This document shows positions 28,145 to 33,806 of a DNA stretch of 55,780 bases, piece after piece (the stretch's first letter is position 1; each line of letters starts with the position of its first letter). Origin of the DNA: an uncultured Candidatus Saccharibacteria bacterium (GTDB lineage Bacteria; Patescibacteriota; Minisyncoccia; Phycocordibacterales; UBA12088); contig CAZWNC010000006.1 in the NCBI GenBank assembly GCA_964635195.1, forward strand, positions 1-55,780, in the 5' to 3' direction. A program made the translations under genes and the position numbers. Under the pieces are notes generated by a model. That model saw only the letters and a program-made list of their open reading frames with translations, ran no database searches and was not told the origin of the DNA.

Positions 28145-28540
28145 CTAGAAACCAAATATTAGAAATAACCCGTACACTCCCCAAAAAAATCCCCACCCTC
28201 CGAGAGCGAGCGCAAGTATCCACGCAAGTGTGGTCTTCCACCACGCATCGAACGCCTTACGCGCAAGCATACTACTGCGAAGCGCGAGGAAACCTGCAAA
28301 AATGTAGATAATCGCAGGGATGATCATGAAGAAGTTCTGGGAAAACCCCTCGAAACCTGATGAAACAAGAACCGTCCAACAAGAACCGAAACCGATCACG
28401 TTGAGTACCAGCGAATAGTTGAGGAGTCGCAAGACGGGTGATTTGGTGTTTTCTTTGCTATATGGGATGTAAGGCGATCCTCCTGTACCCGTACTGTTTG
28501 CAGGCCTAAATTCGGGTGGAGTATTTTTATCAGAAAACAT
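28145..28540 (-). CDS. small 3-4 TM membrane protein, paralog A
   Basis: 131 aa, MFSDKNTPPEFRPANSTGTGGSPYIPYSKENTK... It is a paralog of 30592-30987. Confidence 0.6.
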   Translation of the reverse strand: MFSDKNTPPEFRPANSTGTGGSPYIPYSKENTKSPVLRLLNYSLVLNVIGFGSCWTVLVSSGFEGFSQNFFMIIPAIIYIFAGFLALRSSMLARKAFDAWWKTTLAWILALALGGWGFFWGVYGLFLIFGF

Positions 28541-30205: not shown

Positions 30206-30517
30206 TTAGGGGTGGTGATTGTGAGCACCTCGTTCAGACATACATACAGAAACTCGCCTCAAGTGAGTTTGAGAGTCGCCCCAGCTCAACACTTTACGTA
30301 AGTACAAATCGAGGATGACCGTGAGATAGCTGAAGCCGTATTGAAGTCGAATGCAGATGAAGTCCATACTCCATGGTTTGCGTACCATGCAACAACGCAA
30401 GAGGTAGGGGTATACGACATGCTCCATATGGGAAACGGGGTCACCATTTTGTCCTTCAGCAACATGAGGAGTCACTACTCTTCTTTGTGCGTATCGTGCT
30501 CGCGAGAACACAAGCAT
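30206..30517 (-). mobile_element. truncated IS3-family-like transposase fragment (start of rve/DDE integrase core)
   Basis: KPWSMDFICIRLQYGFSYLTVILDLYLRKVLSW matches the W..D.TYI....G..YL..V.DL.SR.V.GW block around the first catalytic Asp of IS3-type OrfB. The frame ends about 20 codons later and no remainder lies downstream. Confidence 0.5.
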
Positions 30518-30576
30518 AAACGCACGCCGACGAACATCGCTACCAGTTCCGCAAAATAATGGAACGGGAAGTTCAT
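30475..30576 (-). pseudogene. 5' fragment of the lgt-like gene (33 codons then stop)
   Basis: MNFPFHYFAELVAMFVGVRLCLCSREHDTHKEE-stop. At DNA level it is near-identical to the first ~30 codons of 27392-28129. Confidence 0.8.
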
Positions 30577-30591
30577 TTCAATTTCAAGTGT

Positions 30592-30987
30592 CTAGAAACC
30601 AAACAATATAAGTAACCCTTGCACTCCCCAAAAAAATCCCCACCCTCCGAGAGTGAGTGCAAGAATCTGTGCAAGGACGACCTTCCACCGCACATCGAAC
30701 GCTTTATGCGCAAGTAAAATACTTCGAAACGAGAGCAATCCAGCAAATAAATAGCTCACAATAGGAATAACAATCAGAGAACTTGTGAAACTCTTCCTGA
30801 AACCCAACGTAAGATAAACCCATGTGCAAGAACCGAAACCGATCAGATTGATCACCAAAGAATAACTTAGGAGTCGCAAGACGGATGATTTGGTGTTTTC
30901 TTTGGTATACGGGTTGTAAGGCGATCCTCCTGTACCCGTACTGTTTGCAGGCCTGAATTCGGGTGGAGTATTTTTATCAGAAAACAT
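30592..30987 (-). CDS. small membrane protein, paralog B
   Basis: Start MFSDKN at 30987. The N-terminal ~40 aa and C-terminal ~20 aa are almost identical to paralog A; the central TM region is diverged. Confidence 0.6.
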   Translation of the reverse strand: MFSDKNTPPEFRPANSTGTGGSPYNPYTKENTKSSVLRLLSYSLVINLIGFGSCTWVYLTLGFRKSFTSSLIVIPIVSYLFAGLLSFRSILLAHKAFDVRWKVVLAQILALTLGGWGFFWGVQGLLILFGF

Positions 30988-31009
30988 AATATGCAAGAGT
31001 AATGGGGTA

Positions 31010-31038
31010 AGTATAGAGGCACTTCGACAGTCTTGTAA
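31010..31038 (-). promoter_or_regulatory. sigma70-like promoter of paralog B (duplicate of 28573-28601)
   Basis: It has the same TTACAA-17-TATACT element, located inside repeat copy 2. Confidence 0.4.
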
Positions 31039-31182
31039 AGTATCTCGTTTAAGTCACACATCGGATAGTACCTAGGGTCTGCAGATACTCCGTTTATAAA
31101 AACATGTTACAAATTCACCACAAATCGTGTGACTCGCGCAAAGTGTTGTGAATTACATTTTACTTACTACTGTTTTTTCACC

Positions 31183-31482
31183 TCAGTAAAGTAAGTCACC
31201 ATAGCTTGTGGTCAGTGTGCCCAAAAACATTGGTACGACAAATGCAAGTGCAATAAGCGGTAGGACGAACATGACGACCGACACGATCATTGTCATGAGA
31301 AAATATTTACGTGTTTTTTCGACTGAGGTGTATATCGCATTCAACTTACTATCGAGCGCTTCGAGCGCATGTTTTGTTTCTTGATCCATATGGACAAGCA
31401 TACCATGCATACCCCATCCAACAATTTCAAAAAAGTTCACAACAGCTGGCGCACGTGCGTGTTGACTTGGAAATGGGGACAC
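31183..31482 (-). CDS. small membrane protein (hypothetical)
   Basis: C-terminal TM helix MTMIVSVVMFVLPLIALAFVVPMFLG. The real start is probably MDQETKH at 31389. Confidence 0.4.
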   Translation of the reverse strand: MSPFPSQHARAPAVVNFFEIVGWGMHGMLVHMDQETKHALEALDSKLNAIYTSVEKTRKYFLMTMIVSVVMFVLPLIALAFVVPMFLGTLTTSYGDLLY

Positions 31483-31634
31483 TTCTCAGCACAGCATTGC
31501 TGGCACGCGTGGGCAGGAAATGGCGCGTGTATGTATTGTTGCTTGCCGAAAGGCCCGCGCACGGATCTGCGAGATATAACTATTTTGAAAAATCGTGCCA
31601 CTTACAAGGTGGCGAGTATCCAAAAAATACTAGT

Positions 31635-31664
31635 GGGAATTATAGTATTGATACTATAATTCCC
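31635..31664 (-). terminator. strong hairpin downstream of the tRNA-Gln locus
   Basis: GGGAATTATAGTA / TACTATAATTCCC gives a stem of about 13 bp. On the minus strand a T-run follows 8 nt later. Confidence 0.4.
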
Positions 31665-31757
31665 GGGGAGCAACCAAAAAAGAACCCTGGTTCCTTTTTA
31701 CTCCCGATCGCATACGAGCTTGAGTCCTAGCCAACATCATCGTCACCATATTCCTAG

Positions 31758-31811
31758 CTGCCGGACTAGGACTCGAACCTAGATAGACGGAACCAAAACC
31801 CGTAGTCCTAC
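31758..31811 (-). pseudogene. tRNA-Gln(UUG) 3' portion (positions ~18-73) of an interrupted second copy
   Basis: 53 of 54 nt are identical to the corresponding part of the intact tRNA at 31863-31933. The one change is a C-to-T in the anticodon stem, giving a G-U pair. Confidence 0.8.
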
Positions 31812-31862
31812 AGATAAGCGAGCGAGTGTCGCGGACAAACGGTTATTTCCTTGCGTGCTGTG

Positions 31863-31933
31863 CTGCCGGACTAGGACTCGAACCTAGATAGACGGGACCA
31901 AAACCCGTAGTCCTACCATTAGACGATCCGGCA
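31863..31933 (-). tRNA. tRNA-Gln (anticodon UUG), no encoded CCA
   Basis: The reverse complement TGCCGGA-TC-GTCT-AATGGTA-GGAC-T-ACGGG-TTTTGGT-CCCGT-CTAT-CTAGG-TTCGAGT-CCTAG-TCCGGCA-G folds as a cloverleaf. The U1-A72 pair and G73 are typical of bacterial tRNA-Gln. Confidence 0.85.
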
Positions 31934-31998
31934 GCACAACGCGTAAAGAGAAGAGCAAATGTTTGTCCATGACCGAGCGAGTGATATCTGTATCGAGA

Positions 31999-32018
31999 TA
32001 CCATCAGACGATCCGGCA
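31999..32018 (-). pseudogene. tRNA-Gln 5' portion (positions 1-20) of the interrupted copy
   Basis: TGCCGGATCGTCTGATGGTA is 19/20 identical to the 5' end of the intact tRNA. The sequence then diverges. Confidence 0.75.
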
Positions 32019-32275
32019 TTGTACAAACGATCTACAATACATCACTCACGTTCCCTGTCCCTCTGACGGGACTGCGTTACCTACACCTGCCGTAGTCCTT
32101 AACCTCGGAACGGCTCGGCGATAGATAGCGACCCACCCCATCTGAACGTGTTAAAACACCTACGACAACACTAGGGTACCATACTATGCCATAATTTCCA
32201 GACTTGCAGGGGTTACGGCACTGTGTGTAACTTTTAGACCCACGCATGTGCGTGTTGATTAGAGGTTGACTTCAG

Positions 32276-33145
32276 TCAACACGCTTGTTGCATGTCGAGG
32301 AATTGCTCCCATGAAATGGTTGCACCGGAAGCGCAAGGGTGTCCTCCACCACCAAGCAGTGTGGCCACAGCAAGCGCATTGGGGACTTGATGCGCACGAG
32401 AGCGAATGCTGCACTTCACACTATTACCTCGAACGGTATAGAGAATAACAGCAGAATCAAAACGTTCCGAAAGGATGTTGCCACAGATCGATTCGTGCGT
32501 CGTGATGTTCACCGCAGGTATCGTGTGGGCACCCACCCTTAGCAAACGCGGGGGGATGCGCAAAAAGTTTTCGACCTCGGTGTCGACGTAAGCACTGATC
32601 ACTTGCCCCTTCTCCACCACCTCTTCGAGAGGCTTTTCGAAGAGAGCTCCCATAGCTACGGGATCGTTACGAAATATGGAGAGATACTGTGTCACATGTT
32701 TTGTCTCGGGAAAAGCATGCGTCCACAGATCACCATCCTCGACGTGTCGAACGAGCATCGGCATGTCTTCGTCCGGAAAAAGCGTACTCCAGGTGAGTGA
32801 GGCACCTGAGTGGGAGGGGTCACACACACGCGTCAACTTTGGAAACTGCTCTTCAAGCTGTGCAATCTCGCCACACGCCTGCTCGTGATGGTCGATGACG
32901 GTAACGGTACACCCAAGTGCGAGACATTCGTGCAACCCCAGTATGCAGTCGACAATATACACATGGGTCGATGCCGAAACATGCGTGCGCACCTCTTCAA
33001 AATCCTTCTCCGTGTATGCGTGACTGAGAGGAAAGGTGCGCGCGTGCGGAAAGGCACGCAGAAGGACAGCTGCAGCTGTGGTGCCATCGACGCAGTCCTT
33101 GTGGTAAATACAGCAAATATCATCCATACGTTTATCCAAGACCAA
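32276..33145 (-). CDS. DHH/DHHA1 family phosphoesterase (NrnA-like)
   Basis: DCVDG, IVDC, VIDHHE (DHH motif) and C-terminal GGGGHPCASGA (DHHA1 GGGH motif). Confidence 0.8.
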   Translation of the reverse strand: MVLDKRMDDICCIYHKDCVDGTTAAAVLLRAFPHARTFPLSHAYTEKDFEEVRTHVSASTHVYIVDCILGLHECLALGCTVTVIDHHEQACGEIAQLEEQFPKLTRVCDPSHSGASLTWSTLFPDEDMPMLVRHVEDGDLWTHAFPETKHVTQYLSIFRNDPVAMGALFEKPLEEVVEKGQVISAYVDTEVENFLRIPPRLLRVGAHTIPAVNITTHESICGNILSERFDSAVILYTVRGNSVKCSIRSRAHQVPNALAVATLLGGGGHPCASGATISWEQFLDMQQAC

Positions 33146-33806
33146 ACCTGCTCCGCACCCCTTCCGGTTGTGTCACCCCTTCCTTGACTGACCATGTTCC
33201 ATCCAGCGTATCACCACCCACCCCTTCAGGCACCCACGTGGCGGTAATGTATGAACAGTTTGGTATCAGCAGGTTCTTCCAGAGGGCTCGACGGTACTGT
33301 GCGACCGTGTCCAAACCATCTCGCTTCATTCGCTCTTGCATGGTGGCGATAAAACCACGATGTGTCACAACCAGAATGTGCTCCTCAGGGCGATCGGCAA
33401 GGTACTCGAGCGCACGACGTGCACGCGTGTGAAATTCCTCTAAGTTCTCCTCATCACTATGTCGCCATTCAGGTTCATCGGCATGTATGTATATTTGCGA
33501 CATAGTCCAGAGCGAACGAGGATGCAACCAATTTTCACCCCACAACGAACGAGGACGTCGAAGCTCCGTAAACAGGTCGCACGTTTCGACCGACACGTTG
33601 GTGCGTTCGGATATCGCTTCCGCAGTTTGCTGTGTCCGCAGGTATGGGCTTGCTATCAGCACCTCAAGGGGTATGTCTTTAAAATGCTCCCCTACCACCC
33701 GGGCCTGTGTCATACCACGTTCCGATAGCGGTGTTTCCGGATACTGATGAATGAAAGCCCTGTTTCCGGGAGTCTCACCATGCCGTAGAAAATAGATGGT
33801 CTTCAT
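33132..33806 (-). CDS. histidine phosphatase (phosphoglycerate mutase-like) family protein, paralog 3
   Basis: Start MKTIYFLRHGETPGN at 33806. RHG motif and VVTHRGF second His. Confidence 0.8.
   Translation of the reverse strand: MKTIYFLRHGETPGNRAFIHQYPETPLSERGMTQARVVGEHFKDIPLEVLIASPYLRTQQTAEAISERTNVSVETCDLFTELRRPRSLWGENWLHPRSLWTMSQIYIHADEPEWRHSDEENLEEFHTRARRALEYLADRPEEHILVVTHRGFIATMQERMKRDGLDTVAQYRRALWKNLLIPNCSYITATWVPEGVGGDTLDGTWSVKEGVTQPEGVRSRFGLG

What the first reader, a model, noticed from the sequence alone, without database searches (positions are those of the whole stretch)
31758..32018. tRNA-Gln(UUG) nested inside the D-loop of a second, interrupted tRNA-Gln(UUG) copy
**Seen in the sequence (read on the minus strand)**
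- The first element is a 20-nt piece (32018-31999) that is 19/20 identical to tRNA-Gln positions 1-20.
- Next come 65 nt of unrelated sequence.
- An intact 71-nt tRNA-Gln follows (31933-31863).
- Another 51 nt of unrelated sequence follows.
- The last element is a 54-nt piece (31811-31758) that is 53/54 identical to positions ~18-73.
- The two pieces overlap by GTA. Joined, they would make a complete second tRNA-Gln with two benign substitutions: A14G, and C-to-U in the anticodon stem giving a G-U pair.
- The interruption is therefore a 187-bp insert (31812-31998) flanked by a 3-bp duplication.
- The insert arms can pair: AGATA/TATCT at the outer ends and GGACAAAC/GTTTGTCC further in. A shared 10-mer CGAGCGAGTG lies in direct orientation in both arms.

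**Possible explanations (inference)**
- A small tRNA-carrying, MITE-like element has inserted into a sister tRNA gene.
- It is a scar of nested integration/excision at a tRNA att site; a decaying island with an integrase fragment lies 0.7 kb away.
- It is an unusual D-loop intervening sequence whose closing helix brings the halves together, so that processing of the inner tRNA would leave a split tRNA.

I do not know of a described bacterial case of a tRNA nested in its own paralog's D-loop.
Basis: seen in the sequence. Interest (0 to 1): 0.6.

Follow-up and report, generated by a model that had tools for sequence, protein, structure and literature searches.

The report
Replacement tRNA-Gln cassette splitting old gene
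In this ultra-small Saccharibacteria genome the original glutamine tRNA gene has been cut in two by a 187-base, gene-less insert bounded by inverted repeats that carries a complete working copy of the same tRNA, so the outer halves are most likely dead remnants, not a new kind of split tRNA.

Summary
On the minus strand lie tRNA-Gln positions 1-20 (19/20), a 65-nt arm, an intact tRNA-Gln(UUG), a 51-nt arm, then positions 18-71 (53/54). Contigs from four public runs in three studies support every junction, so it is not a misassembly.

A same-genus genome has the uninterrupted gene in the same context, so this is an insertion into the ancestral gene. The two arms are imperfect inverted repeats (40 pairs, 0 of 500 shuffles as stable). 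The right arm and its junction are homologous to arms in the tRNA-Gln(CUG) gene of another genus, where an empty site also exists, and to a relic at this genome's own CUG locus.

The inner gene is the only tRNA-Gln(UUG) that ARAGORN calls. The outer halves decay in relatives, and I found no splicing endonuclease or RtcB ligase.

My reading: a tiny replacement-tRNA cassette, in logic a protein-less miniature of phage "tRNA-dependent lysogeny". How it moves is unknown. It is single-copy, with no recombinase nearby, so it is not a classical MITE.

Partial tRNA self-copies lie beside 10 of this genome's 40 tRNA genes. Earlier unchecked notes of this scan describe similar nested cassettes in other CPR genomes, at the anticodon and T loops. 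My two literature searches found no published description.

The parts
31999..32018 (-). Outer 5' piece: tRNA-Gln positions 1-20, 19/20 identical to the inner gene (G at position 14). It keeps the ancestral upstream context.
   Evidence: The upstream genes are syntenic with G007. Strain X3 has A14 here.
31934..31998 (-). Left arm, 65 nt. Contains TACAGATA (31985-31992), CACTCGCTCG (31974-31983) and GGACAAAC (31961-31968). It is an imperfect inverted repeat of the right arm.
   Evidence: No other copy in the genome.
31863..31933 (-). Inner, intact tRNA-Gln(UUG). It is the only tRNA-Gln(UUG) gene ARAGORN calls in the assembly and is identical (72/72) to the uninterrupted gene of G007.
31812..31862 (-). 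Right arm, 51 nt. Contains GTTTGTCC (31833-31840), CACTCGCTCG (31819-31828) and, running on into the 3' piece, TATCTGTA (31809-31816). It is homologous to the arms behind tRNA-Gln(CUG) in G016 and G024.
   Evidence: z 10.2 and 6.0, 0 of 500 shuffles each.
31758..31811 (-). Outer 3' piece: tRNA-Gln positions 18-71, 53/54 identical to the inner gene. It is followed by the ancestral downstream flank.
   Evidence: The flank is homologous to the flank behind the intact gene of G007 and of G016:C49.
31718..31734 (-). Eroded antisense copy of the tRNA-Gln T arm. In relatives the corresponding copy matches the adjacent working tRNA-Gln(UUG) over 18-23 nt.

Best explanation
**What it is.** The resident tRNA-Gln(UUG) gene of this Candidatus Saccharibacteria genome was split in its D loop, at the TA of GGTA|GG. 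The insert is a 187-bp segment with no protein gene: a complete tRNA-Gln flanked by two arms of about 50-65 nt that are imperfect inverted repeats of each other.

**Shown.**
- The layout is real.
- An uninterrupted allele exists in a same-genus genome.
- The right arm is homologous to arms inside the paralogous tRNA-Gln(CUG) gene of another genus, where an empty site also exists.
- The two arms are related to each other.

**Inferred.**
- The inner gene is the working one. RNase P and 3' processing would release it from any transcript.
- The outer halves are inactive remnants.
- The insert is kept because it now holds the only tRNA-Gln(UUG). This is the logic of 'tRNA-dependent lysogeny', shrunk to a cassette without genes.
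- The inner and outer copies stay alike through gene conversion. This would also explain why a UUG-type tRNA body sits between arms of the CUG-locus type.
- The cassette entered by one recombination event with only 2-3 shared bases (TA or GTA). Either a recombinase supplied in trans did this on a site made by the joined ends (right end + GTA + left end give a perfect 10-2-10 palindrome), or it was recombination after DNA uptake using the conserved tRNA halves as homology. Which of the two cannot be decided here.
For: **The layout is real.**
- Layout and identities.
- Junctions covered by contigs of 4 runs from 3 studies, including a diverged strain.

**It is an insertion.**
- Empty site at the UUG gene: G007 has an identical, uninterrupted tRNA with the same upstream genes and a homologous downstream flank.
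- Second filled/empty pair at the CUG gene: G016 and G024 are filled. G020 is simple, with the same downstream flank as behind G016's outer 3' piece (z 25).
- The CUG locus of G016 and G024 is orthologous to our C1 locus, not to this one.

**The arms form one unit and have relatives.**
- Right-arm homology: z 10.2 (G016) and 6.0 (G024), 0 of 500 shuffles each. Their arm also matches the flank behind our own tRNA-Gln(CUG): z 6.3-6.5.
- The two arms are related: 0 of 4000 shuffles show both repeat classes. The duplex is -37.4 kcal/mol against -19.3 +/- 3.8, 0 of 500, with 40 pairs, 37 of them Watson-Crick.

**The inner gene works and the outer halves do not.**
- The inner gene is the only tRNA-Gln(UUG) among the 40 tRNA genes ARAGORN finds.
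- Outer copies erode or track the inner. The 5' pieces in G010 and G005:C37 are diverged, and in G024 no longer significant. The 3' pieces are 51/51 (G024) and 55/56 (G016) identical to the inner copy, although by eye the G024 and G016 sequences printed differ at roughly ten positions.
- The downstream antisense partner that follows working tRNA-Gln(UUG) genes in relatives is eroded here.
- No EndA or RtcB was found.

**Published analogue.** In PMC10865867 (abstract and passages read), the attP and attB sites share a short core, the host tRNA is not rebuilt, and the element carries the same isotype.
Against: - No mobility was seen directly. There is one copy in this genome, no joint or circle in the laid contigs, and no copy in the phage, plasmid or viral collections.
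- The right-junction motif was found in only 2 other genomes of the genome collection, and in none of the 6 metagenome hits.
- No recombinase lies next to the locus.
- Left-arm homology to other genomes is weak or absent: z 2.8 for G024 (9 of 500 shuffles), not significant for G010, G005:C37, G014 and G005:C3.
- Arm pairing is not significant in G024 (208 of 500).
- The inner tRNA is native in sequence, which a foreign cassette does not predict without an extra gene-conversion step.
- 5' pieces ending at positions 20-24 occur with unrelated spacers at other loci. The D loop may therefore simply be a breakpoint hot spot.
- Expression was not tested.
Confidence: 0.6

Rival explanations
1. Debris of local duplication. 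The locus once held a tandem array of tRNA-Gln copies. Two deletions with end points in the D loop removed most of the first and third copies. Nothing was inserted or mobile.
For: - Tandem dead copies of a tRNA do exist in this genome: tRNA-Leu(tag) on C41.
- Partial self-copies lie within 600 nt of 10 of the 40 tRNA genes.
- 5' pieces ending at positions 20-24 recur with unrelated spacers.
- The two arms share a 10-mer, so they could overlap as one former spacer.
Against: - It needs three copies and two deletions whose ends happen to be complementary, overlapping by GTA.
- The same right junction (TCTG|TAGGAC) is seen at a non-orthologous gene in another genus.
- The arms are inverted repeats of each other over 40 pairs, which a simple spacer does not predict.
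- The flanks of the outer halves, not of the inner gene, match the native context.
Confidence: 0.15
2. Two independent attachment-site scars. One larger integrative element replaced the 5' part of the gene and another replaced the 3' part. Both were later eroded to 65- and 51-nt stubs in this shrinking genome.
For: - tRNA fragments left by integrated elements are well known (PMC9897764, passages read).
- Large serine recombinase genes lie 140 nt and 2.1 kb from tRNA-Gln(CUG) in G010 and G016.
- This genome has a probable 11-kb island at tRNA-Glu: a copy of tRNA positions 30-62 lies 11 kb downstream of the gene, with a large serine recombinase gene in between.
- Only the right arm has clear homologues elsewhere.
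Against: - The arms are statistically related to each other, which two unrelated elements do not predict.
- No recombinase remnant was found in the window by tblastn (best E 0.026, at 41 kb).
- The right arm has nearly the same length in three genomes (51-53 nt), so any erosion would have to predate the spread.
- The D loop is not a usual integrase sublocation (Williams 2002, recalled; cited in the reference list of PMC9897764).
Confidence: 0.15
3. Functional intervening sequence. The whole region is one precursor RNA. The arm helix brings the outer halves together, processing releases the inner tRNA, and a two-piece or religated second tRNA-Gln results.
For: - The joined halves are called tRNA-Gln by ARAGORN.
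- The 276-nt RNA folds into a nested rod (-101 kcal/mol, z -3.7).
- In this strain and in X3 the outer halves are still nearly intact.
Against: - The fold score is inflated by the duplicated tRNA parts.
- 37 of the 40 arm pairs are Watson-Crick, so there is no RNA-strand signature.
- The listed strain differences in the left arm (5 of 65) are as frequent as in the adjacent intergenic DNA (19 of 257). That list is incomplete.
- The outer halves are eroded or truncated in G024, G010 and G005:C37.
- G14 replaces a near-invariant A.
- No EndA or RtcB was found in a 94.7% complete genome.
- No group I intron or any other Rfam family matched.
Confidence: 0.04
4. Assembly artefact created by collapsing or chaining tRNA repeats.
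For: Short-read assemblers break at tRNA repeats. Other tRNA loci in this assembly contain runs of N.
Against: Independent contigs from 4 runs in 3 studies cross each arm junction with unique sequence on both sides. One contig (X4) spans the right arm, the inner gene and the left arm. The same architecture occurs in G016, G024 and G005:C37.
Confidence: 0.01

Closest known systems
tRNA-dependent lysogeny of actinobacteriophages (Guerrero-Bustamante & Hatfull 2024, PMC10865867; abstract and passages read)
   Same: The insertion goes into an essential tRNA gene with only a very short shared core, so the tRNA is not rebuilt. [quoted passage not shown]
   Different: Those elements are whole prophages with a tyrosine integrase and arm-type sites, and they insert near the anticodon or 3' half. 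This one is 187 bp, has no gene, sits in the D loop, and has a tRNA identical to the native type.
Partial tRNA genes (attL/attR repeats) left by integrative elements (PMC9897764, passages read; Reiter 1989 and Williams 2002 seen only in its reference list)
   Same: A complete tRNA gene lies beside partial copies of itself. tRNA genes act as recombination hot spots. Such fragments are frequent in this genome.
   Different: Classical scars repeat 30-45 bp from the anticodon or T loop to the 3' end and flank kilobases with an integrase. Here the two outer pieces are complementary halves sharing 3 bp, and they enclose only the tRNA and its short inverted-repeat arms.
MITEs (miniature inverted-repeat transposable elements)
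   Same: Small size, inverted-repeat arms, a 2-3 bp duplication (TA or GTA), no protein gene.
   Different: Single copy per genome. No matching autonomous transposon was found in the IS630-like copies of relatives that I examined. It also carries a functional tRNA.
Archaeal and algal disrupted tRNA genes: non-canonical introns, split and permuted tRNAs (PMC3218864 and PMC3978253, seen as search listings and abstracts only)
   Same: The tRNA coding sequence is interrupted away from position 37/38, and a helix could bring the halves together.
   Different: Those depend on the bulge-helix-bulge motif, the EndA endonuclease and a ligase. This is a bacterium in which neither was found, and its outer halves decay in relatives.
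RtT-type repeats behind E. coli tyrT (Rfam RF00391; recalled, lead from earlier scan note e1-1555321)
   Same: Short non-coding units behind a tRNA gene, each ending in a copy of the tRNA's 3' end. This resembles the other scars in this genome.
   Different: No Rfam hit other than tRNA in 30500-33500 at E up to 1. RtT units do not enclose a whole tRNA or split the gene.

Membership tests
tRNA (Rfam RF00005), inner copy | Covariance-model score above the gathering score, and a cloverleaf with an anticodon | tested here: met
   58.1 bits against a gathering score of 29, model positions 1-71. ARAGORN calls tRNA-Gln(ttg).
MITE | Terminal inverted repeats | tested here: met
   The arms pair over 40 positions, 0 of 500 shuffles as stable. 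The outermost exact match is 8 bp (TACAGATA / TATCTGTA) and is offset by 6 nt at the left end.
MITE | Many copies in the genome | tested here: not met
   blastn-short of both arms against the 1.1-Mb assembly returned only the locus itself. Other hits were 17 nt or shorter, with E of 0.13 or worse.
MITE | A related autonomous transposon with matching ends | tested here: not met
   DDE_3 (IS630-like) copies matched in 7 of 61 genomes, counting G000. Of the 3 copies scanned for inverted repeats, 2 (G007, G017) have terminal repeats, and these are unrelated to the arms. Arm BLAST against all 8 loci gave matches of at most 11 nt.
Integrase attachment-site scar at a tRNA gene | A common core of tens of bp running from the anticodon or T loop to the 3' end, repeated at both ends of the element | tested here: not met
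   The outer halves share only GTA, and the break lies in the D loop.
Integrase attachment-site scar at a tRNA gene | An integrase or recombinase gene inside or beside the element | tested here: not met
   No recombinase domain in the neighbouring ORFs except a weak rve fragment about 1.2 kb away. No serine-recombinase remnant nearby: the best tblastn match in the window (E 0.026) lies at about 41 kb, roughly 9 kb from the locus.
tRNA-dependent lysogeny type integration | A short common core, so that the host tRNA is not reconstructed | tested here: met
   3 bp are shared. Neither junction rebuilds a tRNA.
tRNA-dependent lysogeny type integration | [quoted passage not shown] | tested here: met
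   The inner tRNA-Gln(UUG) is the only one called in the assembly.
tRNA-dependent lysogeny type integration | The element is a prophage with its own tyrosine integrase | tested here: not met
   The insert is 187 bp, made up of a 65-nt arm, the 71-nt tRNA and a 51-nt arm, too short to encode an integrase. The only frames listed over it (58 and 53 aa) run through the tRNA or out into the flank. The genome has one Phage_integrase hit, on another contig.
Archaeal-type tRNA intron or split tRNA | Splicing endonuclease (EndA) and RNA ligase (RtcB) present | tested here: not met
   PF01974 and PF01139 gave no match in G000 (94.7% complete). The control genomes matched.
Archaeal-type tRNA intron or split tRNA | A bulge-helix-bulge motif at both boundaries | not tested
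   No dedicated search was run. The minimum-free-energy fold was not analysed for this motif.
Group I intron in a tRNA gene | A match to a group I intron covariance model | tested here: not met
   The Rfam scan of 30500-33500 at E up to 1 returned only tRNA.

The most novel reading that the evidence does not exclude
Saccharibacteria and other CPR bacteria may harbour an undescribed class of protein-less 'replacement tRNA cassettes'.

These would be inverted-repeat-bounded units of 130-200 bp that invade a loop position of the resident tRNA gene, here the D loop. They carry the only working copy, so the host cannot lose them. They would spread between strains and between paralogous genes by borrowing host recombination or a recombinase supplied in trans. 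The highly conserved tRNA halves would serve as ready-made homology arms after natural DNA uptake.
Probability: 0.25. Interest if true: 0.75.

Novelty: new variant of a known kind. Interest (0 to 1): 0.5.

Why it matters
**Annotation.** If the reading holds, essential tRNA genes in ultra-small bacteria can be overwritten by tiny self-preserving cassettes that encode no protein. tRNA counts and 'pseudo-tRNA' calls in CPR genomes would need to take this into account.

**Evolution.** It would explain the unusual density of tRNA fragments in these genomes. It also suggests a minimal form of genetic addiction, in which the insert destroys the resident gene and supplies the replacement.

**Concerted evolution.** The locus gives a clean natural example of concerted evolution between repeats of only about 55 nt.

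**What it is not.** It does not support a bacterial split tRNA.

Tried and rejected
**Searches for a transposon, recombinase or site link**
- IS630/Tc1 link (TA target, CAG...CTG ends). DDE_3 copies matched in 7 of 61 genomes, counting G000. Of 3 copies scanned, 2 have terminal repeats, and these are unrelated to the arms.
- dif-like or other copy of the joined-end palindrome in the genome: none with fewer than 3 mismatches apart from the locus itself.
- Serine-recombinase remnant near the locus: none.
- A small GIY-YIG ORF lies about 115 nt behind tRNA-Gln(UUG) in G009. I could not tie it to this locus.

**Searches for other copies**
- Phage, plasmid and viral collections: only the tRNA part matches.
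- Metagenome scan for the right junction: 6 hits, none in a tRNA context.
- Right arm against 401 genomes of the order: only three 17-20-nt matches at E 0.003-0.009. That sample held just 6 other genomes of the family and did not include G016 or G024.

**Homologies that did not hold**
- I thought I saw left-arm homology with G010, G005:C37, G014 and G005:C3. It is not significant (38 to 472 of 500 shuffles score as high).
- A degenerate 5' piece in G024 is not significant (115 of 1000).
- The native UUG flanks as the source of the arms: not significant.

**Expression and signals**
- Sigma-70-type promoter scan: 0 sites.
- No RNA holder was listed among the public runs, so expression could not be examined.
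- No joint skipping the insert and no back-joint was seen in the laid contigs. Contigs drop rare forms, so this says little.

**Literature**
- Two searches for nested tRNA genes in bacteria or Patescibacteria found no description.
- Williams 2002 is not held in the library.
- Supplementary tables of PMC9897764 and PMC10865867 were not seen. They may list further att sublocations.
Full report
**1.

Read on the minus strand, the locus consists of five pieces.
- tRNA-Gln positions 1-20 at 32018-31999, 19/20 identical to the inner gene.
- A 65-nt arm at 31998-31934.
- A complete tRNA-Gln(UUG) at 31933-31863.
- A 51-nt arm at 31862-31812.
- tRNA-Gln positions 18-71 at 31811-31758, 53/54 identical.

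ARAGORN calls only the inner gene. Rfam's tRNA model gives it 58.1 bits against a gathering score of 29. BLAST of the inner gene against the locus returns the two outer pieces at the stated coordinates. When a script removes the 187-bp insert, ARAGORN calls the joined halves tRNA-Gln(ttg).

**2. It is not an assembly artefact**

The 1-kb region is held by 20 listed public runs from 13 studies, most with only small shares. I laid Logan contigs of four runs from three studies on it.
- X1 and X2 have error-free contigs crossing from the outer 3' piece through the right arm into the inner gene (31761-31891 and 31757-31890).
- They also have contigs from the inner gene through the left arm and the 5' piece into the upstream flank (31897-32400 and 31886-32072).
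- X4 has a single contig spanning 31793-32004.
- X3 carries a diverged strain (34 other letters and 12 gaps over 540 bases) with the same layout.

Contigs break only inside the duplicated tRNA part, as expected for short-read graphs. In X3 the 5' piece has A at position 14, so the G14 of this window is a recent change.

**3. Organism and gene set**

The genome is 1.10 Mb in 52 contigs, 50% G+C, with a tmRNA and 40 tRNA genes. Record titles of related loci name Candidatus Saccharibacteria. The inner gene is the only tRNA-Gln(UUG) that ARAGORN calls. A tRNA-Gln(CUG) lies on contig C1.

**4. It is an insertion into the ancestral gene**

G007 is in the same genus. It has a tRNA-Gln(UUG) identical to the inner gene (72/72) that is not interrupted.
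- It lies behind the same DHH and histidine-phosphatase genes (1298 nt aligned at 65%; Pfam).
- It is followed by a flank homologous to the one behind our outer 3' piece.
- G016:C49 shares that downstream flank too.

So the outer halves sit in the native context, and the 187 bp between them is extra.

**5. The same architecture exists at the paralogous gene in other genera**

G024 and G016 (another genus of the same family) have a full tRNA-Gln(CUG), a 53-nt arm, and a 3' piece that starts at the same position (…TCTG|TAGGAC).
- Taken alone, their arm is homologous to ours: z 10.2 and 6.0, 0 of 500 shuffles each.
- tblastx shows that their locus is orthologous to our C1 tRNA-Gln(CUG) locus, not to this one.
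- The flank behind our own CUG gene is homologous to their arm (z 6.3-6.5, 0 of 500). It looks like an eroded relic of the same structure.
- G020 has a simple CUG gene whose downstream flank matches the flank behind G016's outer 3' piece (z 25). This is a second filled/empty pair.
- G005:C37 (our genus) has a 5' piece, an arm, the tRNA, a short arm and a 3' piece. G010:C28 has the 5' piece and an arm only.

Across the 25 other genomes of the family, arm-spanning BLAST matches occur only in G024 and G016.

The right-junction motif occurs in 8 stretches of the 185,579-species genome collection.
- Only the two Saccharibacteria stretches have a tRNA context.
- None of the 6 metagenome hits has one.
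- There are 0 viral hits.

**6. The arms form one unit**

The left and right arms share a direct 10-mer and two inverted 8-mers.
- A direct 10-mer appeared in 7 of 4000 shuffles.
- Two or more inverted 8-mers appeared in 2 of 4000.
- Both together appeared in 0 of 4000.

The arms pair over 40 positions (37 Watson-Crick, 3 G-T) at -37.4 kcal/mol, against -19.3 +/- 3.8 for shuffles, with 0 of 500 as stable. The insert is therefore a tRNA between imperfect inverted repeats.

Read directly from the sequence, the right end plus GTA plus the left end would form a perfect 10-2-10 palindrome. That hints at a site that once existed as a joined form, either a circle or a contiguous sequence.

In G024 arm pairing is not significant (208 of 500). 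In G005:C37 the arm parts nearest the tRNA pair significantly (2 of 500).

**7. The outer halves look dead, and the copies evolve in concert**

- The 5' pieces of G010 and G005:C37 are diverged. A 5' piece in G024 is no longer statistically detectable.
- G024's 3' piece lacks the last bases of the acceptor strand.
- The 3' pieces are 51/51 (G024), 55/56 (G016) and 53/54 (ours) identical to the inner copy of the same genome.
- By eye, the G024 and G016 sequences printed differ from each other at roughly ten positions.

This pattern points to gene conversion between repeats about 55 nt long, with free decay of the 20-nt 5' piece.

Our inner gene has the UUG-type body, identical to G007. Its right arm is of the type found at CUG loci. 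One conversion from the outer 3' piece would explain that. By eye, all six differences between our UUG and CUG genes lie in the anticodon arm (sequences).

An antisense copy of the tRNA's 3' end follows working tRNA-Gln(UUG) genes in G007, G016, G012 and G003 and co-varies with them (18-23 nt with 1-2 differences). Behind our outer piece it is eroded. This fits a loss of function of the outer gene, though it is a single case.

**8. Against an RNA-level function of the interruption**

- No EndA or RtcB was found in the 94.7% complete genome, while control genomes matched.
- No intron or other Rfam family matched.
- The arm pairs are almost all Watson-Crick.
- Between this strain and X3, the listed differences are 5 of 65 in the left arm and 19 of 257 in the upstream intergenic DNA. 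The table was truncated, so these are lower bounds.
- The fold z-scores (-3.7 as RNA, -4.8 as DNA) are inflated by the duplicated tRNA parts.

**9. Mechanism: what I could and could not show**

- The arms have no other copy in the genome.
- The neighbouring ORFs hold no recombinase. There is only a weak rve fragment at 30206-30517 and duplicated small membrane-protein genes.
- No serine-recombinase remnant lies near the locus.
- Elsewhere the genome has one tyrosine recombinase, two large serine recombinases next to tRNA genes, and a DDE_3 fragment.
- Of the 3 IS630-like copies of relatives that I scanned, 2 have terminal repeats, and these are unrelated to the arms.
- The joined-end palindrome has no dif-like twin in the genome.

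The event needed only 2-3 shared bases. I therefore commit to a single insertion of an inverted-repeat-bounded replacement cassette and leave the enzyme open. It could be a recombinase supplied in trans. It could also be homology-driven replacement after DNA uptake, using the conserved tRNA halves.

**10. Context**

- Partial self-copies lie within 600 nt of 10 of the 40 tRNA genes of this genome. Examples are 5' pieces before tRNA-Val(cac) and tRNA-Thr(tgt), and tandem dead copies behind tRNA-Leu(tag).
- Large serine recombinase genes lie near tRNA-Gln(CUG) in G010 and G016.
- A small GIY-YIG ORF lies behind tRNA-Gln(UUG) in G009.

These observations keep alive the rival readings: duplication debris, or two eroded attachment-site scars.

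**11. Comparison with what is known**

- Fragments of tRNA genes beside integrated elements are textbook (PMC9897764, passages read).
- The closest published logic is tRNA-dependent lysogeny (PMC10865867; abstract and passages read). There the attP and attB sites share only 8-10 bp, the host tRNA is destroyed, and the phage brings the same isotype. Our case has the same logic without phage, integrase or any gene, and it sits at the D loop.
- Two full-text searches found no description of a tRNA gene nested in its own paralogue in bacteria or Patescibacteria.
- Earlier unchecked notes of this scan report similar nested replacement cassettes in other CPR genomes, at the anticodon loop and T loop. 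I treat them as leads only.

**12. Verdict**

This is a real, heritable, unusual gene-in-gene arrangement. It is best read as a replacement-tRNA cassette inside a dead resident gene, and it is a new variant of a known kind. Interest is moderate (0.5). It would be higher if mobility of such protein-less cassettes were demonstrated.

Noticed in passing
G000 contigs C1:57742, C5:43182-43203, C5:46817-47348, C8:8905, C13:1992-2024, C13:8798-8821, C23:7202-7261, C26:267, C41:304-423: Besides tRNA-Gln, nine other of the 40 tRNA genes have partial self-copies within 600 nt. Examples are 5' pieces 1-33 before tRNA-Val(cac) and 1-24 before tRNA-Thr(tgt), and tandem dead copies behind tRNA-Leu(tag) with an insert in the D loop. 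tRNA loci are recombination hot spots across this genome.
   Followed up: partly
window 31718-31734; L005 (G007), L029 (G016:C49), L032 (G012), L018 (G003); G000 C23:7240-7261 and C5:46817-46835: An antisense copy of the tRNA's own T loop and acceptor 3' strand lies 20-50 nt behind several tRNA genes (Gln-UUG in relatives; Arg-CCG and Val-UAC here). In the Gln and Arg copies it is followed by a GGGGTCGGGGAA...CCCCG hairpin; behind tRNA-Val(UAC) only the GGGGGTCG motif recurs, further downstream. It co-varies with the tRNA across genera, so it is either a conserved long hairpin or a copy-the-target element.
   Followed up: partly
G000 C13:19576-30963: A copy of tRNA-Glu(UUC) positions 30-62 (33 nt, 100% identical) lies 11 kb downstream of the gene. 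A 568-aa large serine recombinase frame starts right at the tRNA. This is probably an 11-kb island. A second large serine recombinase (C5:56566-58197) overlaps the 3' end of tRNA-Arg(UCU).
   Followed up: no
L015 (G009:C5) 1696-1957: An ORF of about 89 aa with a GIY-YIG domain lies roughly 115 nt downstream of tRNA-Gln(UUG) in a same-genus genome. Small GIY-YIG ORFs (80-136 aa) are frequent in the family, with several per genome.
   Followed up: partly
window 28145-28540 and 30592-30996: Two paralogous small membrane-protein genes (131 and 134 aa, N-termini nearly identical) flank a region with a 414-aa ORF of no known family and an rve transposase fragment. This looks like a decayed insertion downstream of the tRNA locus.
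   Followed up: no
G000 C5:46952-47300 and C13:2025-2152: A unit of about 55 nt (CACAAGGGTACTTCC...GGTCGCAC) is repeated in tandem behind tRNA-Val(UAC). One copy lies between the 5' piece and the intact tRNA-Val(CAC).
   Followed up: no
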